Virus record (IMG/VR): IMGVR_UViG_3300011008_000016
Location: 64,001-128,000 of that record
Source of the DNA: a virus
Lineage: Duplodnaviria; Caudoviricetes
Reading direction: 5' to 3' (one strand)
Length of the DNA stretch: 64,000 nt
Made by a program: the position numbers and the translations under genes. Below the pieces are notes generated by a model. It had not been told where the DNA came from. It ran no database searches and saw only the letters and a list, made by a program, of their open reading frames with translations. Below, piece by piece: positions 24,686 through 38,669 of this stretch (within the stretch, counting starts at the first letter, position 1; each line of letters starts with the position of its first letter).

Positions 24686-25693
24686 TTACCCACGCCTTCT
24701 AAATTCAGATTCCACCAAAGACATATCAGACCTATTGTACATTGCTGTAGTAGAAATGTCTGTATGTCCTGCAATAACTTGAACCTCCTCAAGTTTCATA
24801 CCTCGTTTCAAGAGAGTTGTAATTCTTGTTACTCGGTATCTATGAGGATGGGCGTGTTTCACGTCAGCAAGTCTTGCAATCATAGCTAATTTTCTTCTAA
24901 TAGAATCTTCTGTTACTCTTCTATATGGCTTTCTCGACGTAATAAATAATGCACTACATTTATCCTCATCACCCCGTCTTTTCAGATATTCATTAATGTA
25001 GAACATAGATTTATCCGTCAGTGGTACAATCCTATCTTTTGCACCTTTACCATGTAAAACAACATGTTTCTTTACAAAATCAATATCACTCAAGTCAGTT
25101 TTACATAGCTCTGAAACACGACACGCTGTTGAATACATAAATTCCAGTATGGCTTTATCTTTGATTGTCTTGGCTGATAACATAAGCGATTCCATTTCCC
25201 ATTCTGTAAACGGTTCCTCTTTCATGGTATCATGTTTTATCTTCGATAGTCGTTTTGCTGGACTTTTCTGTATAATATCCTCATCAGCCATCCAGTTAAA
25301 GAAAGACGTATAGATTCGTCTAATCCCATCCATGGAAGTATTTGAACCACCACCCTTCTCCTGATACATGGCTAAGAAGAATCTTAGATTTGAAGTAGTC
25401 ATATCTCTAAATGTTAGGTCTGGATAAAAGTCTATCAATTTTTGTATAAACATTTGATACCTTTCTAATGTCTTCTCTGACCTACCTTCAATCCTCTTTG
25501 TTGCTATAAATTGTTTCATCGCTCGTATATTAAAATCATCTGTAACAATAAGACCGGTCTCTTTTCGACTGATGCTATAATCGTAGCAACAACCAACGAT
25601 TACGTTCTTTGCGGATTGCATATTATCGGGTGTAATGTAATTTTGCAAACCGTTGACCAGAGAGTTAATTAATTCTCCCTCACAATCTTCCAT
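24686..25693 (-). CDS. tyrosine recombinase (XerC/D-like)
   Basis: catalytic R (TACRVSE), K (GKGAKDR), HPHRYR, AGH and TTAMY all intact; N-terminal SAM-like domain. Confidence 0.93.
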   Translation of the reverse strand: MEDCEGELINSLVNGLQNYITPDNMQSAKNVIVGCCYDYSISRKETGLIVTDDFNIRAMKQFIATKRIEGRSEKTLERYQMFIQKLIDFYPDLTFRDMTTSNLRFFLAMYQEKGGGSNTSMDGIRRIYTSFFNWMADEDIIQKSPAKRLSKIKHDTMKEEPFTEWEMESLMLSAKTIKDKAILEFMYSTACRVSELCKTDLSDIDFVKKHVVLHGKGAKDRIVPLTDKSMFYINEYLKRRGDEDKCSALFITSRKPYRRVTEDSIRRKLAMIARLADVKHAHPHRYRVTRITTLLKRGMKLEEVQVIAGHTDISTTAMYNRSDMSLVESEFRRRG

Positions 25694-25924
25694 TTACATA
25701 CCTCCTTACATTAGACCTTTATCCTCAACCCATATGTTAAATATATAATCATAAAGAAGTTATGATAAACAATGGTTTACTTGATAATGTATTTTGAGTT
25801 TAATGAAGACGCGTTAGTTCGCTAAACCCCAATTTTAGGGACATCTGCTGTAATTTTTTACCAGAATTTCCATAAGTTTCCAATTTGTAAGTTTCCCAAG
25901 TAAACTTTCGTTTAATAAGAACTA

Positions 25925-27112
25925 TCAGAAGTCATCATCAACATCTCCATCTAAATCTGTATCAATGGTTGGTGTTGGTTGCTGCTCCGATGTAGTGTTG
26001 TTTAATGAATTTATATAATCGACTATGCCAAAATCCGACTTGTAAATAACAACTGGAGTTCTGGCTAAGAAGTAATACTTCGAATATGTGAGTGTTTCAC
26101 TATCGACATCATTGGCATCTTTCCAATAGATGGATAATTTGTATTGCTCGTTGTCTTTCGGTATAAAAATGAACGGTTTCTCGTAGATATCTTCTCTCCG
26201 AAAATCTTCATTACTTATAGTAAAAACACTAAGCTTTACAATAACTCCATCTGGAACATGAATGAGTCGATTTACATTTGCGATATAATCTAGTGTACAT
26301 ATTCCATTCTTCTGTTCCTGTATCTCACCGGTATTATCGTAGATTTTATTCATTATAAATGGTAAATCTACGAGTTCATTATCAGCCAGTGTAATTTGAT
26401 AAGGGTTCGGTTTTGTCCAGAGTTTCATATTGTTTCGTTTGATAAATTCTCTGGGGTTCTCAATATCATTCTCGTTCCTATCAGAGACAACGATACGATA
26501 TAATTTATCCGTTTCTACGTTTGTAAGTCCTGTGGAATTCAGTATGTTCGTTGTAGAAATGAAACCCTCGTTGACATCATATGCCAGTATCGCGATTGTC
26601 CTAGTTGCCGAACAAGCATATTCAATCATATCATCTAAAGCTATATAATTCTTAGAACGAATCATATAATTCCCTTTGATTTTGTTGCCATTGTATATGT
26701 CGAGACCACCATATTCCCATTCACATTCTGCAAGAATGTCTCTTAGATAGCCGTTATTAAATGCACTGAACTTGTCAAACGAAACCATTCCATTGTTGAG
26801 ATTGGTAACCTCACTTTGAATCCGACTACTACTCCATGTATCACCGGAATTTGCATCCGTATCGTCTATTTCAGGGATATATGTAACTTTGTCACTACCA
26901 GATGTATCAATCCATGCTTTTGTATGTGATGGTGGTGTCTCGTCACCAACGTATATATCTCTATATTTCTTTATTTGCTCTCGCACAGCGTCACCTGCAC
27001 TTGCGTAAGTAGTTTCGCCATCTATACCAATACGGATATCGATAAGTTCTGCGTCACCTGTAGTTGAGCCATCGTTTAATGAAACAATTTGACTGATTCG
27101 GTTCCGTTCCAC
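25925..27112 (-). CDS. N-terminally truncated (silent) paralogue of tail-associated protein 34665-36050
   Basis: colinear with 34665-36050 from [12 protein letters not shown] to DGDVDDDF; no RBS before GTG 27112. Confidence 0.75.
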
Positions 27113-27115
27113 GTT

Positions 27116-27125
27116 TAAATCAGAA
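27116..27125. other. candidate recombination crossover site (copy at 35874-35883)
   Basis: TAAATCAGAA in both copies at the point where paralogue homology ends (codons S-D-L). Confidence 0.4.
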
Positions 27126-27278
27126 GTTAAGTAAATAAGAAAAATGAAGGATTAGACTTGTAATTAGAAATGTAAACTTTAGTATAGTTGGAATAAAAAT
27201 CCGTTTTGTAGGAGATTTATTACTATATTAATACGTTAGATACAAACAAACAAGTCTTCATACAAAAGGAGGAAGATT

Positions 27279-27881
27279 ATGATTCACACGAATGTTTATT
27301 TGAACCAGATGGGCAGCGACTATATGGGAGACATGGTCAAGGTTCATCCAGATGATATCAAACAGTCACATATGACACTGTTGGCTCCAGTTGGTAAGCG
27401 TCATGATGTTATTATGGGCTATGCTGAACTTTTGGAGAACGGCTTTGATCTCGGTGCATTTGAGATTAATGGGACATTCAACGACAGTATCTCGGTTGTC
27501 AGATTTTTGAAGAAATATATGCCTGTTAAGAAAGAGCAGGGAACCGAGATCGCTAATTACGTGTACATCAATATTCCTGAAAAGGATAATAAGTACTATG
27601 TTGTACGTCATGATGCAAGTAGTTGCCGTGTATATGATATCCACGTTGACTTAATCGTCAATTACACGCTCGGGAAATATATGTACGTTGATGCTATTTG
27701 CTTCCGTTTCTTACAAGTTGACCTAATAAATTCTGTAAGTATTCTTTACTCTCATGAATGACATAAGTATCATCCATATATCGACCATATAGAAGAGACC
27801 CAGCTTGGATTGCCTGCTGCTAATGATAATGCCCCCGAACTTTCAGAAGATGATCTGAAACGGATATTTGCTGACAAGTGA
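27279..27881 (+). pseudogene. early hypothetical gene interrupted by an 82-bp RT fragment (premature stop 27761)
   Basis: same frame resumes at 27789 (IEETQLGLP...FADK*) and ends at 27881 before the terminator. Confidence 0.65.
27708..27789. repeat. exact 82-bp direct copy of 29244-29325 (RT YMDD region)
   Basis: base-by-base identity. Confidence 0.95.
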
Positions 27882-27965: not shown

Positions 27966-28793
27966 TTATACCTTGGTTGTATATGCAAGACATATCCAAC
28001 CTACACCACTCTTGAGTCTACCCCATTTAGTATTTCCTACCATCTTTTCTTCGACGATAGTATACTTTTCATTCTTCTTTATAGTGGTGACTAATTTGTA
28101 GGTAGAACCTGCACCAGCACGAACATTTAGTTCCGTCGCGGTAACTTTAACAACGTAAGATGTAGATGAACCGCTAGAAACTGACGCCGTTGAGTCTTTC
28201 TTTTTTGTATCCGTACTGGTCGATGTATCACCTTTTAAGATACTTTTTATCATTGCTTTAAATGCATTCCATTCGGCATTGTTTGCACTTGCCATCTGAA
28301 GTGGACACGCTTTACGAGTAATGTCATAATGACGTAATACATAAGTATCAACCTGAGACGCTGTGATTCCAAGCATCTTGCAGATATAAGCACAGAGTTG
28401 AGCAGCAACTGCTTTTGTCGTCTCAGAGACTTTATAGTCCCCTGATGTACACATCTCAATTCCGATAGAATTTGTATTCCGACAAGAAGCATGATAATAC
28501 TTACCAGATGTACCGCAATGCCATGCCCTGTCTCGAAGTTCTACGGATTGACGGATGTGAGAATCATCAACAAAGAAATGTGCAGAAGCTCCACGCCCAC
28601 CAGAAGTGTTGAAATACCTACAATTTGCTTCGGCTGTATCTTTTGGATTCCCAGTATAATGCATTACAACATAGCCAACTGAACGACTTGCTTGGTTGGT
28701 ATAATTCCCAGCATTACACGGGATGTTGTATTCTACGGGTATTCCACCAATTACTGTGTTGGTTAAAAATCCAGTTGAAATAGTTTTAGCCAT
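27966..28793 (-). CDS. N-acetylmuramoyl-L-alanine amidase (Amidase_2 + SH3b) endolysin
   Basis: VMHYT, ASAHFFVD, AWHCG, NSIGIEMC, RHYD..RKACP; C-terminal LNVRAG...WGRLKSGVGWI. Confidence 0.92.
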   Translation of the reverse strand: MAKTISTGFLTNTVIGGIPVEYNIPCNAGNYTNQASRSVGYVVMHYTGNPKDTAEANCRYFNTSGGRGASAHFFVDDSHIRQSVELRDRAWHCGTSGKYYHASCRNTNSIGIEMCTSGDYKVSETTKAVAAQLCAYICKMLGITASQVDTYVLRHYDITRKACPLQMASANNAEWNAFKAMIKSILKGDTSTSTDTKKKDSTASVSSGSSTSYVVKVTATELNVRAGAGSTYKLVTTIKKNEKYTIVEEKMVGNTKWGRLKSGVGWICLAYTTKV

Positions 28794-28905
28794 AGAAATT
28801 ACCTCCTTTTCTTTTTTATAGCTTAAAAAGAAGAAACTGTTACATTATCGGATTAAGAACCGATGCAGTCTGCATCCATCCCGTCACCAATGTAACAGTT
28901 TCTTC

Positions 28906-30123
28906 TCAATAATACGAATCATCATAAAGCCAGTCCTCAACAAATAGTTTGTTATGTAATTCGTCCATTCGTCGAATTGTTTGGTATGCATTATACCATT
29001 GTGCATTGCCTCGCCAAGACCCGTATCCGTTACGGACATCACTATAGTGAATCTTTCCTTCTTTTACCAAGTTTGCCATTCTCTTTAATTTCCGTCTTTC
29101 ACGAACAATGTTATCGTGAGGCATATTCTTAATGATTTTACCTGTCTCTGTGAGATTGTATTTTGTTTTAAGGAATGTAAATTTCGTAAGAGGACAAATC
29201 TGCGTTTTCTTTTCATTTACATGAATACCCAAATCTGTACATATTCTTACAAGTTGACCTAATAAATTCTGTAAGTATTCTTTACTCTCATGAATGACAT
29301 AAGTATCATCCATATATCGACCATAATAATGTAAACCACGAACGATTTTGCAGTAATTATCCATTTGAGTCGGATATAATATCCCAGAGATTTGTGATAT
29401 CTGACTACCAATCCCAAGAGACTTCCGCATCATCTTCTCTCCGGTGTGGAGTTCTTTTGGAATGTTATTGTAGTATTCCAGAGAATTAAATAAATCCTCT
29501 CTACAATGACTAAACTCCTCATCGGACATATATGATACATCTATCTCAAAGGTACTAATCAAATAAGTCACAATTCCCATTGCTAACTCATCTGGTATTT
29601 TCTCATTAAAATAGTTCAAGAGTTTTTCATGGTCAATATTGTCAAAGAATTTACGGAAATCAATTAGTAATACATATCCTTTGTTTGTTCCGTGTTTGCG
29701 ATAATACTGATGTAGGTGTCGATCTAATCGTTTACGTGTAAATCCGATTCCGCGTCCTTTGATCGATGCACCGTTGTCATAAATAAGATACCTCTGCACG
29801 GACGGATTAAGAATGTAGTCACAAACTGCACGATTAATCACACGGTCAGAGATATGCAAACTTTTAACGTGGCGGCGCTTTCCACGCTCATACAATGGAA
29901 ATTCGTAAAATGGTTTTTGTACGTATGTTCCATTGGACAAAACCTTCACAGTCCTATTGATGTTTTTAAGCATTGATGCCTCATATCGCTGTACGGACTC
30001 TTTCCAATCGACTCCCTTCTGCGAATTTTTGAATGCATCATACAAATTATTTGCATCTAACAACTTAGAAAATAGAGGATATTCGATTTCGAAATCCTCT
30101 ACATTTATATTTTCAGGAGTCAT
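28906..30123 (-). CDS. brt: DGR reverse transcriptase
   Basis: ERGKRR, DRVIN, GRG, LIDFRKFFDNIDH, GIGSQISQ, YGRYMDD, FTFL; likely start ATG 30123, with 30124-30259 as the TR-RT spacer. Confidence 0.93.
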   Translation of the reverse strand: MTPENINVEDFEIEYPLFSKLLDANNLYDAFKNSQKGVDWKESVQRYEASMLKNINRTVKVLSNGTYVQKPFYEFPLYERGKRRHVKSLHISDRVINRAVCDYILNPSVQRYLIYDNGASIKGRGIGFTRKRLDRHLHQYYRKHGTNKGYVLLIDFRKFFDNIDHEKLLNYFNEKIPDELAMGIVTYLISTFEIDVSYMSDEEFSHCREDLFNSLEYYNNIPKELHTGEKMMRKSLGIGSQISQISGILYPTQMDNYCKIVRGLHYYGRYMDDTYVIHESKEYLQNLLGQLVRICTDLGIHVNEKKTQICPLTKFTFLKTKYNLTETGKIIKNMPHDNIVRERRKLKRMANLVKEGKIHYSDVRNGYGSWRGNAQWYNAYQTIRRMDELHNKLFVEDWLYDDSYY

Positions 30124-30259
30124 AGTTTTTAACCCCTTGTTTATAGCCTCAACTGTCGTAACAGGACGCATCAATGGGGTAAATTCACCTTGCGGACGGA
30201 CAAGATCTCCTTTCTTAATTCTCCATGTCGGCTCTACATAGCCTACTCTTAGCATGGTC

Positions 30260-30358
30260 TAAGAAATCGGGCGCACACCGTTCGAGTTGGACGCGTTGTT
30301 GTTATTGGAATTGCCATTGTTGTTGCAATTCGCAAAGTTCGTCGAGTTCGCAACGGCT
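30260..30358 (-). repeat. DGR template repeat (TR) with IMH*
   Basis: 13 AAC/AAT codons; matches 33325-33424 except at adenines and one indel at the 3' end. Confidence 0.95.
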
Positions 30359-30416
30359 TTTTCTTCAATGAGATCAGATCTTCCCCGAGATTTCTTACGA
30401 TATAGCTGTAAGCATC

Positions 30417-31238
30417 CTACGTAGTTGTTACCTGCTCAGAAATAATTTTTGGAGAATTGTTCACAGACGTATTAATGATGGTTTTAGCATCACAGACCTC
30501 GTCGTCATCCAATTCGGTGTATTCCCTGATGAATCTATCTGCATACGATTTATGTTGATTATTGGCTGTTGCCGTGTTTTCAGTTTCTGTTTTGTCTTTG
30601 GTATGTTTCTTTTTGCGTTTCTGTTTTTGTTGGTTATTATAATCGTACTCTTCTCGAACTTTCTTTTCAATCTTCTCTCGTTCGATTTCTCTATGAAGGT
30701 CATTCGCATAGATTTTCTTTAAGAGACGATTGTCGCTCTTTCGCCAAGCTCGAAGTAGAGCAATTTCTTTTTCGATGAGGTCAACGTAAGGTAAATATTT
30801 GTTCACGTTAATATCAATCACCGTAAGGATATATTGTAATTCTTGTAGTATCTGTTCACAACAACCAATGGCTTGAGACTGATATTTTCGTCGTTCTGTC
30901 CATTCATCCATAGTTGTTGGATATAATGTATTTGCTTGAATAATGTTTCGAATAAGAAACCTGACTTCCGACATAACCCTGACTCGCATATCGGAAATTA
31001 ACCACTCAGGGTATTCGTCAACGATATTTCGTATTCCATACTTATCAACGATTTCCAGAAACTGTTCTGTATCCTCTGGAGACATTCGATTGATTCTCGT
31101 ATAGAGTTCTGAATTACGAACTTTAGCCTTGACACCGAAATCCCTGAGTAGTAATTCCGTTATGTTCTTTCTTATCTTGTATGCCGTGTGTAAAAATTCA
31201 AGTCTTGAGGTCTTTCTCTTACTTTTAAGTACCGACAT
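30417..31238 (-). CDS. avd: Avd-like accessory protein with basic C-terminal extension
   Basis: MSVLKSKRKTSRLEF...ANTLYP...RRKYQSQAIGCC...LLRAWRKSD; directly upstream of TR; TACA-N6-TAA at 31280. Confidence 0.85.
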   Translation of the reverse strand: MSVLKSKRKTSRLEFLHTAYKIRKNITELLLRDFGVKAKVRNSELYTRINRMSPEDTEQFLEIVDKYGIRNIVDEYPEWLISDMRVRVMSEVRFLIRNIIQANTLYPTTMDEWTERRKYQSQAIGCCEQILQELQYILTVIDINVNKYLPYVDLIEKEIALLRAWRKSDNRLLKKIYANDLHREIEREKIEKKVREEYDYNNQQKQKRKKKHTKDKTETENTATANNQHKSYADRFIREYTELDDDEVCDAKTIINTSVNNSPKIISEQVTTT

Positions 31239-31317
31239 ACGATTTAGTTCCTTTCTCATAAAGATGTAAAAGATTTCATTATAAAAATGTATGTCGTTTG
31301 GAAATTAATTAGAAATA

Positions 31318-32679
31318 TTATCCAATTAACCAATAAGGCCGTAATCCTACATCAACTACGAATATATTATTATTATATATTCGTGGACAATATAATCTGG
31401 ATAATTTACCAGTTGGATATCTAATTGTAAGTCCCATATTGGATGGGTTAGAAGCAGAAGCCCCATTAGCATTATTGCTATTATACACAATGACGTTTGT
31501 ATCATTTCCACACACGCCATACTGATAACTCTCGTAATATGTGGTACCAATTATAGCAGCACTACCAACAGTTCCTGCATATGATGCTTGGTTTGATAAA
31601 ACCCATTGTTTAAATACATTTTCCGTACCTTTTTTTGCTAATCTAAAATTTGGATTAAGTCGAAATATTGGAAATTCTATATCCATCCATTCACCATCTA
31701 AATAATAAGCGTAATTGTTAGCAATGTATATATCACCAAATACATTTTTTATAGATGGTTCCCCAATTTTAAATAATACTTCACCATAATTTGGAGTTGT
31801 ATTTGGTGTTTTAAGATGAGAACCAAACTTATTACTTATTGCCGTTTCATATGCATTAAGTTTAGATGTAAATAATGGTCTATGTATTAGTGCTGTAGAT
31901 GATGTTGCCGCAACATCATCAAGTGTTGTTGTGCCACAATTAAGACAATGTCTTGGCATTATTATTGCAGCGTTTGAATTAAGCTCATTAAATCCGTTTT
32001 CTAAAAATCCACATATTACGCATTGAATTGGCTCATTAGATTTATACGTTGTAGATACAGTGATATCGAAATAATCACCAATGAATAAATCCTCAAATGT
32101 ACCATCTGATATCATTTGACAAATTTGATTAATCGTATAAACATTCGTCAAGTCTTTTCCGCGATATATTGAATTATGTGCCCCCGCATTATTTGCAACT
32201 GTAAACAGCGTTGCAGGGATATTATTCAGTTTATTTTCAGCAGTTGTAAGTCTTGTTCCATGATTTGTAATATTCCCTTCTGCTGTACTCATGCGCGTTG
32301 TTAGATTTGAGATAGACGTTCCTTGTGAACTATTAATACTTTCAGTAGAACTCATCCTCGTTTTTAAATCTGAGACATCCGATTGTAACGTTGCTATATC
32401 TTCAGAAGTATCTGGAACATCTAAATTTGCAACGGTAGTCTCCAAAGTTGTAAGGCGAGTCTTAACATTTTCATTATCCGCTTTAAAAGACTCAAATGAA
32501 GTCAGTATATTATCGGGTACAAACTCTTCTAAGAATTCTGCTTCTGTTCCAGTGTATCCATTTCTCTTAGCAACTTCATACGAAGATTCCCCTTTATCAC
32601 CACTAATCGCAGCGATTCCTTCGTATTTCCCAGTATCGGGATTCACTACTTTAAGCGTTTCTTTTCGAATAGCTAACAT
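31318..32679 (-). CDS. tail fibre / receptor-binding protein with DUF6273-like C-terminus; paralogue of the DGR target without a VR
   Basis: N-terminus nearly identical to 33316-34526; coiled coil; NAGAHNSIYRGKDL; ends GLRPYWLIG. Confidence 0.8.
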   Translation of the reverse strand: MLAIRKETLKVVNPDTGKYEGIAAISGDKGESSYEVAKRNGYTGTEAEFLEEFVPDNILTSFESFKADNENVKTRLTTLETTVANLDVPDTSEDIATLQSDVSDLKTRMSSTESINSSQGTSISNLTTRMSTAEGNITNHGTRLTTAENKLNNIPATLFTVANNAGAHNSIYRGKDLTNVYTINQICQMISDGTFEDLFIGDYFDITVSTTYKSNEPIQCVICGFLENGFNELNSNAAIIMPRHCLNCGTTTLDDVAATSSTALIHRPLFTSKLNAYETAISNKFGSHLKTPNTTPNYGEVLFKIGEPSIKNVFGDIYIANNYAYYLDGEWMDIEFPIFRLNPNFRLAKKGTENVFKQWVLSNQASYAGTVGSAAIIGTTYYESYQYGVCGNDTNVIVYNSNNANGASASNPSNMGLTIRYPTGKLSRLYCPRIYNNNIFVVDVGLRPYWLIG

Positions 32680-32710
32680 AGTTAATCTCCTTTCTTAAAT
32701 TAACAAATAA

Positions 32711-32747
32711 GAGAGTAACCGAGTATTTTTGTTACTCGGTTACTCTC
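32711..32747. terminator. hairpin / terminator
   Basis: 15-bp stem GAGAGTAACCGAGTA / TACTCGGTTACTCTC. Confidence 0.65.
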
Positions 32748-32860
32748 AAATTGCCTTATTTTATTCCGGTAAACCCCAATTTATACTCCTTAATTTTCAC
32801 TAAAAAGTTTATTGAAATCTACCTTAAAAAGAAAGGAAACTACACTTTATTCGGGTAGAA

Positions 32861-33097
32861 TTAAGCTTCCGCTTCTGCCGCATCCAAAGCTTTAAGCTGG
32901 TCCTGAAGTTCGTTAATCTCATCCCGAATTGCCTGCCGCTGTTCCATAATTGCGTTCAGATCATAAGGCATCGGTTTTCCCATTCTTTCATATTCAAGAC
33001 ACTTCGTTACTGCCCAATCACCAACACGGGAAGCAGTAGAGCCAAGGTCCACCGTCAAATCAACAATTCTCTGATTGATCCTCTGACGTTCATCCAT
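32861..33097 (-). CDS. small coiled-coil protein, possible fibre chaperone
   Basis: ATG 33097 after GGAGGT; DWAVTKCLE...PYDL...RQAIRDEINEL; lies directly after the DGR target. Confidence 0.65.
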   Translation of the reverse strand: MDERQRINQRIVDLTVDLGSTASRVGDWAVTKCLEYERMGKPMPYDLNAIMEQRQAIRDEINELQDQLKALDAAEAEA

Positions 33098-33238
33098 TTT
33101 TATTACCTCCATTAGATTTCGATTATAAATTCGACGGCGGGCTATTAACCATAGCCCGCCGTGGTTTCACAGATTATTCTTGATAACCTAATTTGCTTGG
33201 TTCATTGTTTCAATAACTCTTAATTTGTTGCTCGCAGA

Positions 33239-33309
33239 ATCGTTCACTCGCCCCACACGGGGGCGAGATTGAACGATACGGTCCCTTGTCCCTACGGGAC
33301 TGCGGGACC
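33239..33309 (-). promoter_or_regulatory. GC-rich hairpins downstream of VR/IMH (DGR target-recognition cruciforms)
   Basis: GGTCCC..GTCCC-TAC-GGGAC..GGGACC (33280-33309) and ATCGTTCA-CTCGCCCC...GGGGCGAG-TGAACGAT (33239-33277). Confidence 0.75.
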
Positions 33310-33315
33310 TAGCGA

Positions 33316-34526
33316 TCAACCGATTAAGAAATACGGGCGCACACCGTACGAGTTGGACGCGTGGCTGTAACCGGAATGGCCATGGTAGTTGCAAACCGCA
33401 AAGGTCGTCGAGTGCGCAACGGCTCCAGATGAGCAATCTTAGCCGCCGGATTCAGACGGAACAGGTTGAACTGGGTGTTATTTGCTCCGATATCATAGAA
33501 CGAAGAACTCATAACGGTAGAACCATACAAATTCACTTCACTCATCAGACGAAGCTGTAAGCTAACCCATTCCCATCCACTCGCCGCTCCAGTTAAGCCA
33601 GCACCTGCCATAGAAGCACTGTTATTAGAAGCGTTCGAAATTAAACTCTTGTAAGAGAGCAGGTGACTACTTCCAATTACATTAGCAATCGCAGTTGCAT
33701 ATGCAGGAAGCGTTGTAGAATGCATGACTGTTGACTTATATCCACCGGTCACCACATCCGAAGTATTCATCTGAGCGGTTGTCTTGAAGCAGTCCGCAGG
33801 AACAATCGTTGCATGGTGCTTGGTCAACTCCGTATCACCGTTCCCAAGGAAGGTATCAAAGTCAGCCAATACGCACTTAACAACCTCACTACCTCCAATA
33901 GAGGAGTTAATCGTTATTGTGAAAAAGTCACCGATGAATAAATCATCGAAGCTCCCGTCGGCAATCTTAGCACAAATCTGGTCAACCGTATAGATATTGG
34001 CCAGATCCTTTCCTCTAAAGATAGAGTTATGTGCACCGGCATTGCTCTCCACAGACATTCCACCAGTCTGTCCAGATAAACCAGAGATGTTACTCTCAGC
34101 CGTAGTCATCCTTGACTGTAAGCTACTGATATCAGACGTATGGGTGCCAATAGTGGTACCCTGTGTAGAAACGGTACCCTGCAATGTAGAAACATTTCCC
34201 TGAACGGTGGACATGTTGCTCTTTAACGTAGATACGTCGGAGGTCAGAGAAGATACATCCGGAATATCCAGATTGTTTACCGTAGTCTCCAACGTACTAA
34301 CACGCGTTTTCGTGTTTTCAACATCAGCCTTAAACTCCTCAAAGGACAGTACCACATTCTCAGGTACGAATTCCTCTAAGAATTCAGCCTCTGTTCCAGT
34401 AAACCCAAGCCTCTGGGCGATTTCGTAGGAAGATTCTCCTCTGTCCCCAGTGATAGCAGCGATACCTTCGTATTTGCCACTATCGGGATTTACCACTTTA
34501 AGTGTTTCCTTACGAATAGGTAACAT
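33316..34526 (-). CDS. DGR target receptor-binding protein (DUF6273/CLec-like), frameshifted at the VR 5' border
   Basis: main frame stops at 33324; the VR frame reads AVAHSTTFAVCNYHGHSGYSHASNSYGVRPYFLIG* to 33316. Confidence 0.85.
33325..33424 (-). repeat. DGR variable region (VR)
   Basis: 13 substitutions against TR, all at TR adenines. Confidence 0.95.
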
Positions 34527-34664
34527 AATTAATCTCCTTTCGATAAATTATTGATGAAGGCAACCGAGCAAAGATATTACCCGGTTACCCTCATTTTTGA
34601 AACTATAAAAGTTTCCATTTTTGGTGTCCAAGTAACCTTTACGACTTACGTGGTTAAGAACCCT

Positions 34665-36050
34665 TTAAAAATCGTCGTCAACGTCACCGTCACCATCAAC
34701 TGTAGGAACAGAAGAAGGTGTGATAGTTTCTGACTCAGACGAATTTGTCAATGCTTCCAGCTTTGCATCTATATAATCCGTCAGACCGAAGTCTGTCTTG
34801 TAGATGACCACTGGTGTCTTCGCCAAGAAGTAGTACTTCGAGTACGTATAGATTTCTTCATTGTCCTCGATATCTTCCCAATAAATGGTAATCTTGTACT
34901 TCTCCTCGTCCTTAGGGATAAAAACAAACGGCTCCCTATAGACATCCTGCTTCTTGTATGTATCATCAACTGCGTTGAAGACACTAAACTTGATAGCAAT
35001 TCCTTCCGGAATGTAGATGAGCCGCTTCCTATTCTCGATGAATTCATCCGTACAAATTGCATTCCGCCTCTCAGTCCTGTTCCCAATACCATTAATGTAT
35101 CCACTCATGATAAATGGGATTTCAGTTAATTCATTCCCAGAAAGGCTGATTGCATACGGATTTGGTGTAGACCACAGCTTTAAGTCATTGGTCTTGATGA
35201 AGTCCTTAACATTCTCAATCGTAAGATGGTTAATGTCCGTAATGGCAATACGATATTTCTTTGTCGTATCAACACTGGCGATACCATCCGAATTAAGAAT
35301 ATGGGTTGCCGAACTGAAAGTATCATCAGCGTTATACGCCAAGATACCAATTGTCCTAAGACTGGAGCACGAATATTCCACCATATCATCCAAAGTGATA
35401 TAACCCTTTGAACGAACCATGTGGTTATGTGCATTAATCTCAAGACCATTGTAAACGTCAAGTCCGCCGTACTCCCACTCGCATTCTGCAAGGATATCCC
35501 TCAGATATCCGTTCTTGAAAGCGCTGCTATCGGTGAAGGAAACCATACCATTATTGGCATTCCGCATCTCCCTCTGGATTTTCTGGCTACTCCAAGTATC
35601 CTCGTTGCTTACTTCCAAATCTTTGATTTCAGGAATATATACCATTTCATCCCGTTCAGAAGTATCGATCCAAGCCTTTGCAAATGTAGGTGGCTCATTG
35701 TCGCCGACATAGATGTCCCTGTACTTTTTGATTTGTTCACGGACAGCTTCGCCAGCGCTTGAATAGGTCGTTGTACCATCTATTCCAATACGGATATCAG
35801 CAAGTTCTGCATCACCTGTCGTTGACCCGTCAGTTAAGGATACGATCTGGCTAATCCGGTTACGCTCAACCGCTAAATCAGAATTTACCTGATCAATAAG
35901 CGAAGCTAACGTTCCAGATATTGCTTTATTCTTTTCGGTTGCATCTAATGCGTAGAAACCGACTTTATCGATGTTGGAATCATTACGAATCCGATTACCG
36001 AGACGAATCTGTTCCGTAAGACGGTCCATTAATAGATCGTGTAATCGCAT
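34665..36050 (-). CDS. tail-associated protein (full-length copy)
   Basis: 461 aa; YALDATEKN...GTLA...VNSDL then [25 protein letters not shown]; late motif at 36080-36091. Confidence 0.75.
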
Positions 36051-36188: not shown

Positions 36189-36998
36189 TCAAATCATTTT
36201 AGAAAGCGTAGCAGGTCCAACAATACCATCTGCTTTCAGACCATTCTTCTCCTGATAAGCAATGACTGCACTTCTGGTTCCTGCTCCAAAGAGTCCATCT
36301 TCCGGAACACCAACCTTCATCTGTACGAATCGTACTGTTTCTCCCTTAGAGCCAACTACGTAACGACCTGATACCTTATTGAAGGTAGCATTCAGAGAAA
36401 TCTTGTTCATGACAGCTTTGGTCTTCGGACCAAACTTACCATCTTCAACAAGAGAACCTAACTTATCAGCATTAATCGCCTTCTGGAATAACAGACAAGA
36501 GTTGGAAGCAATCGCCGCACAACTTGTCTTGAATCCAGTATCAATCTGAGCAGAACCATCTGCTGCTGTAAGGAACAGAGCCTGTTCTTTTGCACGCCTT
36601 GTCACCAGACCTGCAAGTGTATTTCCTCCAGCCTTGCAGTATTTCGGAATAGAAGCTGCAATCTGGTCAAGAGTCCTATTTGCACAAAGAGTCTTCAGAT
36701 TTCCCTGACCGCAATTAAATGCAAAAGATACCAATGCATCAAACTGATTCTGATTCAGAGAATCCGTTACCGGAACATAGACTCTGTTATTTACATAACC
36801 TTCAAATTTCTGAAGGTCTTGCTTAAGTAGATTTTCTGCCTGTGCCTGAGTAATTGTCATACCAGCCTTAACATCAGCACCTGTATGACCATAACCAATC
36901 GTGAGCACACCCGCAGAGCATTTGTAAGTTGTCAAACGGCATCCTTCACATGACATGATAAGGTTGACACCGTTCTGACTTGTTTTACGATTTGCCAT
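36189..36998 (-). CDS. GH24 lysozyme with peptidoglycan-binding domains
   Basis: EGCRLTTYKCSAGVLTIGYGHT, LNQNQFDALVSFAFN, GLVTRRAKE; DGxFGxxT and DGIVGPAT repeats. Confidence 0.92.
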   Translation of the reverse strand: MANRKTSQNGVNLIMSCEGCRLTTYKCSAGVLTIGYGHTGADVKAGMTITQAQAENLLKQDLQKFEGYVNNRVYVPVTDSLNQNQFDALVSFAFNCGQGNLKTLCANRTLDQIAASIPKYCKAGGNTLAGLVTRRAKEQALFLTAADGSAQIDTGFKTSCAAIASNSCLLFQKAINADKLGSLVEDGKFGPKTKAVMNKISLNATFNKVSGRYVVGSKGETVRFVQMKVGVPEDGLFGAGTRSAVIAYQEKNGLKADGIVGPATLSKMI

Positions 36999-37601: not shown

Positions 37602-38669
37602 TTAAATGCAGAAAGTGGGAAGGAGCCGATACTCACTGGTAGAATCTCCACTGTTGATGTCTCCGTCTGCCTCAATAAATGCATACTGAGTTCCATTTGC
37701 TTTCGCAGGAGAACGGGTCCAATGGTTGTCGTAACCAGTGACCATATCGCTCTGTTTCTTCTTACGGTTGACAGGATTCTTGTAGTACTCGTACTGATCA
37801 CCTTCGTTGACTACACCGACTGTTACGTCGTTACCCACGTATTCAGATTCAGACAGGAAGAATACCTTATCCGAAACAACAAGCAAATCACTGGACTTAT
37901 TACCAGCACTACAGGTCTTATCAACAGCCTTAATCAGAGCCTGAAGCTGAGGATTCAAAGCATCGAAGAATCCATTATTGCACCAAGCCCTACGTTTACA
38001 ATCTCTCCAGCCGCCAACATTTGTAATACGCGTATGCATAACACCAGCACTACCAATACCATTGGACAACTGAATAGTAACAGCAGCCTTTCCACCGCCA
38101 GTGAGATAATCATGATTGAATCCGATAATGGTTGCCATCTGAGTCATCGCAGCATGGGACTCTAGAACGCCATTAACAGCCTCGATTGTATTATACGTAA
38201 TCGGTCTCTGATCGCCAACATTCCAGAACTCGGCAAGGTCAATAATTCCAGCATAATGACGCTTCAGCATAATACCGATTTCTTCCAGAGTAGCCTCCGC
38301 AAACGGTACAATACCGGTCAGGCTTCCATCTGCCTTCACATCCACATAGATTTTATTTGCAATCGGGTCAAAGGTTGTTTCAACCTGCTCCAGAAGAACT
38401 CCGTCTGCCGAATATCCGTATACAGTATACGTATTATTTCCATTATCAACAAGAACTTCACGAGCCCCATCTGTGTAATCCACAGAGATTTGGTTGGTCC
38501 CAACATTCCATGTCGCCCTCTTATCATCATACCGACCCATAAGCTTACTGTTCAGGAGAGCGGTCAGATAAGAAGGAGCGAAATTCTTGAGACTTCTGTC
38601 ATAAAGGTCAATAGCAATATCAGGGATGTCGCCATGTAACGGCTCATCCAAATACATTGTAACTGCCAT
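37602..38669 (-). CDS. protein with C-terminal DUF6273-like domain
   Basis: IIGFNHD, NVGGW..CKRR, DKVFFLSESE, EGDQYEYY, HWTRSP, LLPTFCI. Confidence 0.8.
   Translation of the reverse strand: MAVTMYLDEPLHGDIPDIAIDLYDRSLKNFAPSYLTALLNSKLMGRYDDKRATWNVGTNQISVDYTDGAREVLVDNGNNTYTVYGYSADGVLLEQVETTFDPIANKIYVDVKADGSLTGIVPFAEATLEEIGIMLKRHYAGIIDLAEFWNVGDQRPITYNTIEAVNGVLESHAAMTQMATIIGFNHDYLTGGGKAAVTIQLSNGIGSAGVMHTRITNVGGWRDCKRRAWCNNGFFDALNPQLQALIKAVDKTCSAGNKSSDLLVVSDKVFFLSESEYVGNDVTVGVVNEGDQYEYYKNPVNRKKKQSDMVTGYDNHWTRSPAKANGTQYAFIEADGDINSGDSTSEYRLLPTFCI

What the first reader, a model, noticed from the sequence alone, without database searches (positions are those of the whole stretch)
28906..34526. Complete DGR in a phiKZ/AR9-type jumbo phage, apparently under a phage late promoter
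Seen: gene order target(VR), small ORF, target paralogue, avd, TR, spacer, RT. TR 30260-30358 and VR 33325-33424 differ at 13 positions, all TR adenines, plus one indel in IMH/IMH*. TR has 13 AAY codons and GC hairpins follow the VR. A TACA-N6-TAA late motif (31280-31291) precedes avd. Established: this is the BPP-1-type mutagenic retrohoming signature, best known from temperate phages. Inference: a prophage-derived DGR has come under jumbo-phage RNAP control, so receptor diversification is timed to late lytic growth.
Basis: partly seen in the sequence, partly recalled or inferred. Interest (0 to 1): 0.8.

Follow-up and report, generated by a model that had tools for sequence, protein, structure and literature searches.

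The report
DGR in an AR9-like jumbo phage
A 244-kb phage that carries its own RNA polymerases holds a genuine, recently active diversity-generating retroelement that rewrites the tip of a lectin-like tail-fibre protein, but in this assembly the target gene has a 37-base deletion at the edge of the variable region.

Summary
TR 30268-30358 and VR 33334-33424 (minus strand) differ at 13 of 91 positions, all at TR adenines (P about 2e-8). The IMH/IMH* indel, the GC hairpins after the VR and the order target, small ORF, paralogue, avd, TR, spacer, RT are all present.

The RT has the DGR motif IGxxxSQ plus YMDD. The 280-aa "avd" has the Avd fold, and the target family has a C-type-lectin fold (DUF6273). 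The genome (244,309 bp) has homologues of all eight AR9 beta/beta' RNA polymerase pieces.

ACA-N6-TAA is the most enriched of 4,096 gapped motifs upstream of genes, and only at a 6-nt spacing. One copy precedes avd and a strong terminator follows RT. "Late" timing rests only on analogy with AR9.

A 37-nt deletion at the VR's 5' edge removes the conserved RxWYWL strand.

An independent assembly of the same phage, with identical RT and paralogue proteins, has the intact 415-aa allele. Its VR differs at 5 residues, all AAY-coded, so the element diversifies in nature.

This is a known mechanism in a little-described host class. The scan has already noted DGRs in other RNAP-encoding jumbo phages.

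The parts
33324..34526 (-). Target gene as assembled (400-aa ORF). It has an N-terminal fibre-attachment and coiled-coil part and a DUF6273 / C-type-lectin-fold C-terminal domain. The last 33 residues are read in the wrong frame.
33316..33435 (-). True (AAY) reading frame of the VR. It ends GVRPYFLIG*, as in the paralogue and all homologues. It is closed upstream by a TAA, so it is not translated in this assembly.
33334..33424 (-). Variable region (VR): 13 substitutions relative to the TR, all at TR adenines.
33424..33428 (-). Junction of the 37-nt deletion (CTGG|AGCC). It removes 13 codons (GNGSTTRQWYWLS in the intact allele P0271) and shifts the frame.
33324..33345 (-). IMH-like 3' end of the VR (GC-rich GGTGTGCGCCCG, then TATTTCTTAA). 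It differs from the TR copy by one inserted T.
33239..33309 (-). Two GC-rich hairpins downstream of the VR. The second (CGCCCC..GGGGCG, 5-nt loop) is conserved in position in relatives.
32861..33112 (-). 83-aa ORF (phrog_17180). It sits next to target-type fibre genes in relatives and is probably a fibre accessory or chaperone rather than a DGR part.
31318..32679 (-). Non-diversified paralogue of the target (453 aa, 44% identity). It has no TR-like sequence.
31279..31291 (-). TACATTTTTATAA, an instance of the genome-wide ACA-N6-TAA promoter-like motif. The predicted start site is near 31280.
30417..31238 (-). Avd accessory protein. The true start is probably Met8 at 31238. It has a four-helix-bundle core with an inserted beta-hairpin/helix module and a long Lys/Glu-rich tail.
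30268..30358 (-). Template repeat (TR): 28 adenines and 13 AAY codons.
30205..30267 (-). IMH* and the conserved spacer (CCATNCTAAGNGTAGGCT...ATGG stem) between the TR and RT.
28906..30255 (-). Reverse transcriptase. The ORF is open from 30255; the likely start is TTG at 30204, after a conserved Shine-Dalgarno sequence. It has IGSQISQ and YMDD.
28823..28907 (-). 20-bp-stem hairpin followed by a U-run; terminator of the avd-TR-RT unit.

Best explanation
This is a genuine BPP-1-type diversity-generating retroelement in the tail-fibre module of an AR9/PBS1-like jumbo phage that encodes its own RNA polymerases.

Proposed mechanism:
- avd, TR, spacer and RT form one transcription unit.
- The RT-Avd complex copies the TR RNA into cDNA and misincorporates opposite adenines.
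- The cDNA replaces the VR at the 3' end of a C-type-lectin-fold (DUF6273) fibre gene, guided by the IMH and the downstream hairpins. This recodes 13 Asn (AAY) codons at the receptor-binding tip.

Shown: the element has been active recently in the natural population. In this particular assembly the target allele has a 37-nt deletion abutting the VR's 5' edge, so the diversified frame is not translated.

Unresolved: whether that deletion is a real null allele or an assembly error.

Inferred: the avd-TR-RT unit starts at an ACA-N6-TAA element, this phage's counterpart of the AR9 late (non-virion RNAP) promoter AACA-N6-TA. On that reading the element is expressed by the phage polymerase during lytic growth.
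For: TR and VR:
- All 13 of 13 mismatches are at TR adenines.
- There is a single VR and a single RT in the genome.

Proteins:
- RT: RVT_1 3.7e-18, phrog_1423 6e-66, motifs IGSQISQ and YMDD.
- Avd: 27 of 42 family members hit phrog_3206 'Avd protein of DGR'.
- Avd model: pLDDT 85.5. It aligns to bAvd 4dwl_E at Z 14.0, rmsd 1.8 A, 108 of 109 residues, and to Avd in the DGR RNP 8ub7_E at Z 13.6.
- Intact target homologue model: pLDDT 87.6. It matches C-type-lectin-fold proteins including DGR targets TvpA (2y3c, Z 6.1) and Mtd (1yu0, Z 4.2), and Lcl-C (Z 7.2).

Relatives:
- Four related loci have the same cassette with adenine-only mismatches: 17 of 18, 20 of 21, 17 of 17 and 12 of 12.
- Three of these loci lie on contigs of 220-239 kb that carry the nvRNAP beta gene.

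Activity:
- P0271, from an independent ENA assembly, shares identical RT and paralogue proteins with the window.
- It differs from the window's target at 1 of 367 non-VR residues but at 5 VR residues, all TR-AAY positions (P about 9e-8).

Transcription unit:
- ACA-N6-TAA occurs 51 times against 12.6 expected. It ranks first of 4,096 XXX-N6-YYY motifs and only at spacer 6. Its distance to start codons peaks at 30-39 nt.
- The same method recovers AR9's known AACA-N6-TR (80 against 21).
- TACATT-N4-TAA is present before avd in the window, L006 and L009.
- A terminator follows RT (-41 kcal/mol, z -6.6).

Phage type: tblastn hits to all AR9 nvRNAP and vRNAP beta/beta' pieces.
Against: - The target ORF is out of frame with the VR. 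It lacks the invariant R/W/L strand, so this copy cannot display the diversified residues.
- No reads are available, so activity in this very genome is not shown.
- There are no transcript data. The motif is absent before avd in sister phage L007.
- The motif also precedes replication-type genes, so 'late' is uncertain.
- The AR9 fifth (promoter-specificity) subunit homologue was not detected by BLAST.
- Position -11 is T here, whereas AR9 strictly requires A (PMC7598289).
Confidence: 0.78

Rival explanations
1. The 37-nt deletion is an assembly or consensus artefact. The real phage has an intact in-frame target, so the DGR is fully complete.
For: - An independent assembly of the same species encodes the intact 415-aa allele.
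- The lesion sits exactly where the population becomes hypervariable, a place where metagenome assemblers struggle.
- A second anomaly lies 5.6 kb away: an exact 82-nt copy of RT sequence inserted in another ORF. This hints at local assembly trouble.
- A 1,783-bp JGI contig holds a truncated copy of the same gene (P0272).
Against: - The deletion lies in the non-variable sequence just upstream of the VR, not inside it.
- The rest of the 244-kb contig has long intact ORFs, 90% coding density and only one 16-N gap far away.
- TR and VR share no exact stretch long enough to confuse usual k-mers.
Confidence: 0.4
2. The deletion is real and marks a dead target. In this genome the DGR is a decaying or idling element, and the VR differences are a legacy of past activity.
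For: - The frameshift and loss of the invariant core strand.
- Paralogous fibre genes (453 aa, and the 355-aa DUF6273 protein at 37602-38669) could cover the function.
Against: - RT, Avd, TR, IMH, spacer and hairpins are all intact.
- The RT protein is 100% identical to that of the assembly with the intact target, so any loss is very recent.
- A deletion that ends precisely at the TR/VR homology boundary could itself be a by-product of an aberrant cDNA integration, which would imply activity.
Confidence: 0.3
3. The motif before avd is not a functional promoter. On this reading avd-TR-RT is transcribed by read-through from the fibre genes or by another polymerase, as in small-phage DGR cassettes.
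For: - Sister phage L007 lacks the motif before avd.
- About 12 chance occurrences are expected among the 51.
- T at -11 would be inactive for AR9 nvRNAP.
- In small-phage relatives, avd follows the VR hairpin directly.
Against: - The motif ranks first genome-wide with strict spacing and position.
- It lies in a 58-nt intergenic gap in the right orientation, 42 nt before the Met8 start.
- TACATT-N4-TAA recurs in L006 and L009 amid otherwise unalignable sequence.
Confidence: 0.35

Closest known systems
Bordetella phage BPP-1 DGR (mtd-avd-TR-brt)
   Same: - Gene order is target, accessory, TR, RT.
- Mutagenesis is adenine-specific and acts on AAY codons.
- The VR sits at the 3' end of a C-type-lectin-fold receptor-binding gene.
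- It has a GC-rich IMH, a hairpin after the VR, the Avd four-helix bundle and a spacer between the TR and RT.
   Different: - The host phage is a 244-kb RNAP-encoding jumbo phage, not a 42-kb temperate podophage.
- Avd is 273 aa, with an inserted module and a long charged tail, against 128 aa.
- The target is the DUF6273 type rather than the Mtd type.
- A paralogue and a small ORF lie between the target and avd.
- The avd unit has its own phage-type promoter-like element.
- The target is frame-broken in this assembly.
DGR cassettes of gut Firmicutes phages (e.g. Roseburia phage Shimadzu; IMG/VR contigs L008, L012)
   Same: They share the same cassette type: a DUF6273-like target, a long Avd, the TR and an RT that is 37-51% identical.
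   Different: In those 39-71 kb phages avd follows the VR hairpin directly, with no intergenic ACA-N6-TAA element. L008 gave no hit to the nvRNAP beta gene; L012 was not searched.
AR9 late promoter AACA-N6-T(A/G), recognised by the non-virion RNAP (PMC7598289, PMC5449584)
   Same: An ACA core, a strict 6-nt spacer and then TA. It lies about 20-40 nt before start codons. The phage has homologues of all four nvRNAP beta/beta' pieces.
   Different: - The -11 position is not constrained here (A 16, C 15, T 9, G 6 of 46 sites).
- A third base, TAA, is required.
- The phage encodes a ThyA-family enzyme and no UGI, so it probably lacks the uracil DNA that AR9 promoter recognition needs.
- A homologue of the fifth subunit was not found by BLAST.
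Reverse transcriptases of Staphylococcus AR9-like jumbo phages (DC4, MarsHill; PMC10638138)
   Same: An RT gene in an RNAP-encoding jumbo phage of Firmicutes.
   Different: Those phages are reported to lack the characteristic DGR regions. Here the TR, VR, Avd and IMH are all present.

Membership tests
Diversity-generating retroelement (DGR) | RT of the DGR clade (motif [I/L/V]GxxxSQ, YxDD) | tested here: met
   IGSQISQ at 281-287 and YMDD at 314; RVT_1 3.7e-18; phrog_1423 6e-66
Diversity-generating retroelement (DGR) | TR/VR pair whose differences are confined to TR adenines | tested here: met
   13 of 13 at A, P about 2e-8. Relatives show 17 of 18, 20 of 21, 17 of 17 and 12 of 12.
Diversity-generating retroelement (DGR) | VR lies in frame at the 3' end of an expressed target ORF, with variable sites at AAY codons | tested here: not met
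   In this assembly the AAY frame is -1 relative to the ORF and is closed by a TAA. The feature is met in the same-species allele P0271 and in L007.
Diversity-generating retroelement (DGR) | IMH at the VR 3' end that differs from IMH* in the TR; stem-loop downstream of the VR | tested here: met
   GC-rich end plus a conserved 1-nt indel; hairpins with z -6.6. Their function was not tested.
Diversity-generating retroelement (DGR) | Accessory protein Avd (four-helix bundle) | tested here: met
   Weak phrog_3206 hit for this protein (2e-4), but 27 of 42 family members match, best 7e-11. Fold match to 4dwl_E: Z 14.0, rmsd 1.8 A, 108 of 109 residues. No hits in Pfam or by PDB sequence search.
Diversity-generating retroelement (DGR) | Target with a C-type-lectin (or Ig) fold that displays the VR residues | tested here: met
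   The model of intact homologue P0003 matches Lcl-C at Z 7.2, TvpA at Z 6.1, many CTLDs at Z about 5, and Mtd at Z 4.2. Homologues carry PF19789 DUF6273.
Diversity-generating retroelement (DGR) | VR actually varies between individuals at adenine-templated sites | tested here: met
   Window against P0271: 5 VR differences, all at AAY-coded residues, against 1 of 367 elsewhere. Only two alleles were compared and no reads were available.
AR9/PBS1-type RNAP-encoding jumbo phage | Genome over 200 kb with split beta/beta' genes for a virion and a non-virion RNAP | tested here: met
   244,309 bp; tblastn hits to AR9 gp088, gp104, gp153 and gp269 (nvRNAP) and gp077, gp144, gp188 and gp263 (vRNAP)
AR9/PBS1-type RNAP-encoding jumbo phage | Fifth nvRNAP subunit (promoter specificity) | tested here: inconclusive
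   No BLASTP hit. A 565-aa ORF occupies the syntenic slot between the primase and gp226-like genes.
AR9/PBS1-type RNAP-encoding jumbo phage | Uracil-containing DNA (UGI, dTMP-removing enzymes) | tested here: not met
   No homologues of UGI or gp150; a ThyA-family gene is present. This is indirect; base composition was not measured.
AR9/PBS1-type RNAP-encoding jumbo phage | Late promoter of type ACA-N6-TA upstream of genes | tested here: met
   ACA-N6-TAA is the top-ranked motif and is spacing-specific. The AR9 control works with the same method. Transcription was not tested.

The most novel reading that the evidence does not exclude
A DGR has been rewired into the transcription programme of a phage that does not use the host RNA polymerase. 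avd-TR-RT is fired from a non-virion-RNAP promoter during lytic replication, so each burst releases progeny with diversified fibre tips. This would be a lytic-cycle DGR acting on replicating jumbo-phage DNA. On this reading the deletion ending exactly at the TR/VR homology boundary would be a footprint of an aberrant 5' cDNA integration, giving a natural snapshot of the still unknown integration step.
Probability: 0.3. Interest if true: 0.7.

Novelty: new member of a known kind. Interest (0 to 1): 0.5.

Why it matters
DGRs are mostly described in temperate phages and cellular genomes. A comparative survey of 224 jumbo phages found none of the FGS-type lectin domains that DGR reverse transcriptases diversify (PMC7824862). 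The AR9-like Staphylococcus jumbo phages have an RT but lack DGR features (PMC10638138).

A conserved and evidently active DGR in a clade of RNAP-encoding jumbo phages shows that targeted hypermutation also serves large phages of a virulent-type lineage. It offers a system in which cDNA synthesis and retrohoming must occur on replicating phage DNA under phage-controlled transcription.

The promoter prediction and the deletion at the VR boundary are both directly testable. The finding does not reveal a new mechanism.

Tried and rejected
- Programmed -1 frameshift: rejected. There is no slippery site, and the intact allele P0271 has 13 extra codons that are simply absent here.
- Homology between the flanks upstream of the TR and the VR, as a sign of gene conversion: not significant (local alignment score 13, shuffle P 0.42).
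- A second, remote VR: none. Only the TR and one VR match the non-A positions genome-wide.
- A second RT: none.
- Strict TACA-N6-TAA: not enriched in the window.
- TTTTTTGTA, a first candidate motif: it is the T-run of terminators.
- Sigma-70-type promoters: not enriched (24 against 25.8).
- Avd by sequence: no Pfam, NCBIfam or PDB-sequence hit. Only PHROG and fold comparison recognise it.
- Same-species DNA copies to test the junction: 0 hits in viral contigs and metagenome contigs with a 26-nt, a 36-nt and a 22-nt pattern. A 20-nt pattern found only L007's contig.
- The 82-nt RT fragment as a DGR cDNA product: rejected, because the copy is 100% identical with no adenine changes.
- megablast of the region against isolate phages: no match.
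- No RT phylogeny was built, so the donor of the cassette is not established.


Full report
**Anatomy**

All genes of the finding lie on the minus strand. In transcription order they are:
- a 400-aa ORF (33324-34526);
- an 83-aa ORF (32861-33112);
- a 453-aa paralogue of the first (31318-32679, 44% identity);
- a 280-aa ORF (30417-31259);
- a non-coding stretch that holds the TR;
- a 449-aa reverse transcriptase ORF (28906-30255).

The TR core (30268-30358) and the VR (33334-33424) align without gaps at an offset of 3066 nt. They have 13 mismatches in 91 nt, every one at a TR adenine. With 28 adenines in the TR, the chance of this is about 2e-8.

Both repeats end in GC-rich GGTGTGCGCCCG. After it, the VR reads TATTTCTTAA and the TR reads ATTTCTTAG. 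The same one-base difference is seen in relatives, as expected for an IMH/IMH* pair.

Two GC-rich hairpins follow the VR (-27.3 kcal/mol, z -6.6). A CGCCCC/GGGGCG hairpin with a 5-nt loop recurs at the same place in four related loci. The genome holds only this one VR and one RT.

**The proteins**

- RT: it matches RVT_1 (3.7e-18) and the phage RT family phrog_1423 (6e-66). It carries the DGR-type IGxxxSQ motif (IGSQISQ) and YMDD.
- RT start: a conserved Shine-Dalgarno sequence and a TTG at 30204 suggest the real start. That leaves a spacer of about 60 nt, whose sequence (CCATNCTAAGNGTAGGCT...ATGG) and stem are conserved across five loci.
- Avd by sequence: the 280-aa protein is invisible to Pfam, NCBIfam and PDB sequence profiles. 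It belongs to a family with 838 representative hits, mostly of about 180 aa, that begin at its Met8. Of 42 sampled members, 27 match phrog_3206, 'Avd protein of DGR'.
- Avd by fold: the AlphaFold model (pLDDT 85.5) superposes on Bordetella phage Avd (4dwl_E: Z 14.0, rmsd 1.8 A, 108 of 109 residues) and on Avd in the DGR ribonucleoprotein (8ub7_E: Z 13.6). The only better hits are the related S23-IVS four-helix-bundle proteins.
- Avd conclusion: it is therefore an Avd with an inserted module and a long charged tail.
- Target: homologues (257 hits, mostly about 300 aa, several carrying PF19789 DUF6273) end in ...RxWWWLSAVAxSxxFA...GVRPYFLIG.
- Target fold: a model of the intact homologue P0003 (pLDDT 87.6) gives a hit list dominated by C-type-lectin folds. 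It includes the DGR targets TvpA (Z 6.1) and Mtd (Z 4.2), plus the Legionella Lcl C-domain (Z 7.2).

**The broken target**

The 13 AAY codons of the TR exist only in the frame that is -1 relative to the 400-aa ORF. In that frame the VR reads AVAHSTTFAVCNYHGHSGYSHASNSYGVRPYFLIG*. This matches the C-termini of the paralogue and all homologues. The annotated frame instead gives a nonsense Arg/Thr/Pro-rich tail.

A TAA closes the AAY frame 15 nt upstream of the VR. Against sister phage L007 the window lacks 34 nt just 5' of the TR/VR homology.

The cluster of the 400-aa protein contains P0271, a 415-aa protein from an independent ENA assembly. It is identical to the window's protein at 366 of the first 367 residues. 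It then continues GNGSTTRQWYWLS-AVAN...GVRPYFLIG.

The window therefore carries a 37-nt deletion (13 codons plus one base), with the junction CTGG|AGCC at 33425/33424. The deletion removes residues that are invariant or nearly so in the family (R285, W289, L290 of alignment A5) and that form a core strand of the model.

A programmed frameshift is excluded, because the codons are absent rather than skipped. I cannot tell whether the deletion is real or an assembly error. No reads or same-species DNA could be retrieved.

A second local oddity is an exact 82-nt copy of RT-gene sequence inserted into another ORF at 27708-27789. This keeps the artefact reading alive.

**Evidence of activity**

The ENA assembly encodes RT and paralogue proteins 100% identical to the window's. 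Even so, its VR differs from the window's at five residues:
- H/N
- V/I
- H/Y
- H/G
- N/Y

Each of these lies at a TR-AAY position. Only one difference occurs in the other 367 residues. The hypergeometric probability that at least five of six differences fall on the 13 AAY sites is about 9e-8.

The VR is not clonal, and it varies exactly where the TR has adenines.

**The host phage**

The contig is 244,309 bp, with CheckV completeness of 100%. Its terminase is closest to those of Bacillus and Staphylococcus jumbo phages (BpSp, PBS1/AR9, S6) and, more distantly, phiKZ-like phages.

Forty-seven of 248 ORFs hit AR9 by tblastn. These include:
- all four non-virion RNAP beta/beta' pieces;
- four virion RNAP pieces;
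- tail sheath and head protease;
- both DNA polymerase parts.

The fifth nvRNAP subunit was not found by BLAST, although a 565-aa ORF sits in its syntenic slot. Unlike AR9, the phage has a ThyA-family gene and no UGI, so uracil DNA is unlikely.

**The promoter claim**

The literal TACA-N6-TAA is not enriched in the window. An unbiased scan of all 4,096 XXX-N6-YYY pairs in the regions upstream of the 248 ORFs gives these results:
- ACA-N6-TAA ranks first, with 51 observed against 12.6 expected (z 10.8).
- The excess exists only at a spacer of 6, with 5-12 occurrences at other spacings.
- Shuffling gives z 11.5.
- The motif sits mostly 30-39 nt before start codons.

The same procedure applied to AR9 recovers its experimentally defined late promoter AACA-N6-T(A/G) (80 against 21, z 12.8; consensus from PMC7598289). 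The phage also has a distinct early-type motif, ACTATATTAA.

One ACA-N6-TAA copy lies in the 58-nt gap before avd (31279-31291), 42 nt before Met8. A strong terminator follows RT (20-bp stem plus U-run, -41 kcal/mol, z -6.6). Thus avd-TR-spacer-RT looks like a self-contained unit.

TACATT-N4-TAA recurs before avd in two related jumbo phages (L006, L009), but not in L007. In two small-phage versions of the cassette (L008, L012), avd follows the VR hairpin directly with no such element.

This supports the idea that the retroelement genes are driven by the phage's own polymerase. 'Late' remains an analogy, because the motif also precedes DNA polymerase, helicase and GroEL genes. Neither the target nor the paralogue has the motif; both are preceded by similar strong hairpins.

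**Relatives and origin**

The RT retrieves four IMG/VR loci that carry the same cassette:

| Locus | RT identity | Contig size |
|---|---|---|
| L006 | 70% | 229 kb |
| L007 | 71% | 220 kb |
| L009 | 53% | 239 kb |
| L008 | 51% | 71 kb |

- L006, L007 and L009 lie on contigs that carry the nvRNAP beta gene, at 81%, 87% and 24% identity.
- All four show adenine-only TR/VR differences.
- Synteny around the cassette (DUF6273 fibre gene, 461-aa gene, target, small ORF, avd, RT, amidase) is conserved with L007.

The DGR is therefore a stable feature of this jumbo-phage clade, not a one-off capture. Similar cassettes on 39-71 kb contigs, and 39% RT identity to temperate Clostridia phages, fit an origin in small Firmicutes phages. 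I built no tree and claim no donor.

**Comparison with the literature**

- In a survey of 224 jumbo phages, Iyer et al. found none of the FGS-type lectin domains that DGR reverse transcriptases diversify (PMC7824862).
- The Staphylococcus AR9-like phages have an RT without DGR features (PMC10638138).
- Large gut-virome surveys report DGRs mainly in lysogenic myoviruses (PMC8241571).
- I found no paper describing a DGR in an RNAP-encoding jumbo phage.
- The present scan has already noted such elements in other genomes.

**Verdict**

This is a genuine DGR that diversifies in nature, working by a well-known mechanism in an unusual host class. The promoter link is plausible but unproven. The target allele in this assembly is frame-broken, and that needs read-level checking.

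Noticed in passing
window 27708-27789 and 29244-29325: An exact 82-nt direct repeat. A copy of the RT gene's YMDD region interrupts the + strand ORF that starts at 27279, and the frame resumes after it. There are no adenine-specific changes, so it is not a DGR cDNA product. It is either a recent duplication or an assembly chimera.
   Followed up: partly
window 24686-27128 and 35587-36050; L006:8879-13399: A tyrosine recombinase (Phage_integrase 5e-34) lies next to a 395-aa gene whose 5' 300 nt repeat those of the 461-aa gene upstream of the DGR target (71% identity, direct orientation). In relative L006 the recombinase (67% identity) adjoins inverted copies of fibre genes. This may be a recombinase-driven fibre-gene switch beside the DGR.
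   Followed up: partly
whole genome (e.g. window 8423, 18566, 27223, 60290): A conserved ACTATATTAA motif, often inside a longer repeat (AATCCGGTTCACAGAG-N-TTTGCAACTATATTAAATACTTAGATA), lies 45-105 nt before many non-structural genes. It probably corresponds to the AR9 early (virion RNAP) promoter ATATATTAT.
   Followed up: partly
genome 224524-225498 (outside the window): A ThyA-family gene (267 bits) is present, and homologues of AR9 UGI and dTMP nucleotidase are absent. This AR9-like phage probably does not have uracil DNA, which fits the relaxed -11 position of its late-type motif.
   Followed up: partly
window 34560-34597 and 32711-32747: Two similar 15-18 bp hairpins (GAG[G/A]GTAACCG[G/A]GTAA...) sit 30-45 nt before the start codons of the target and of its paralogue. 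They could be terminators of the preceding genes or a shared regulatory element.
   Followed up: no
window 37602-38669: A third fibre-type gene (355 aa) has a Pfam-recognised DUF6273 domain (1.3e-18). It is 59% identical to a syntenic gene in L007 and has no TR match.
   Followed up: no
window 27966-28793 and 36189-36998: Two different endolysin-type genes flank the DGR and fibre cluster: Amidase_2 plus SH3_3, and phage lysozyme plus PG_binding_1.
   Followed up: no
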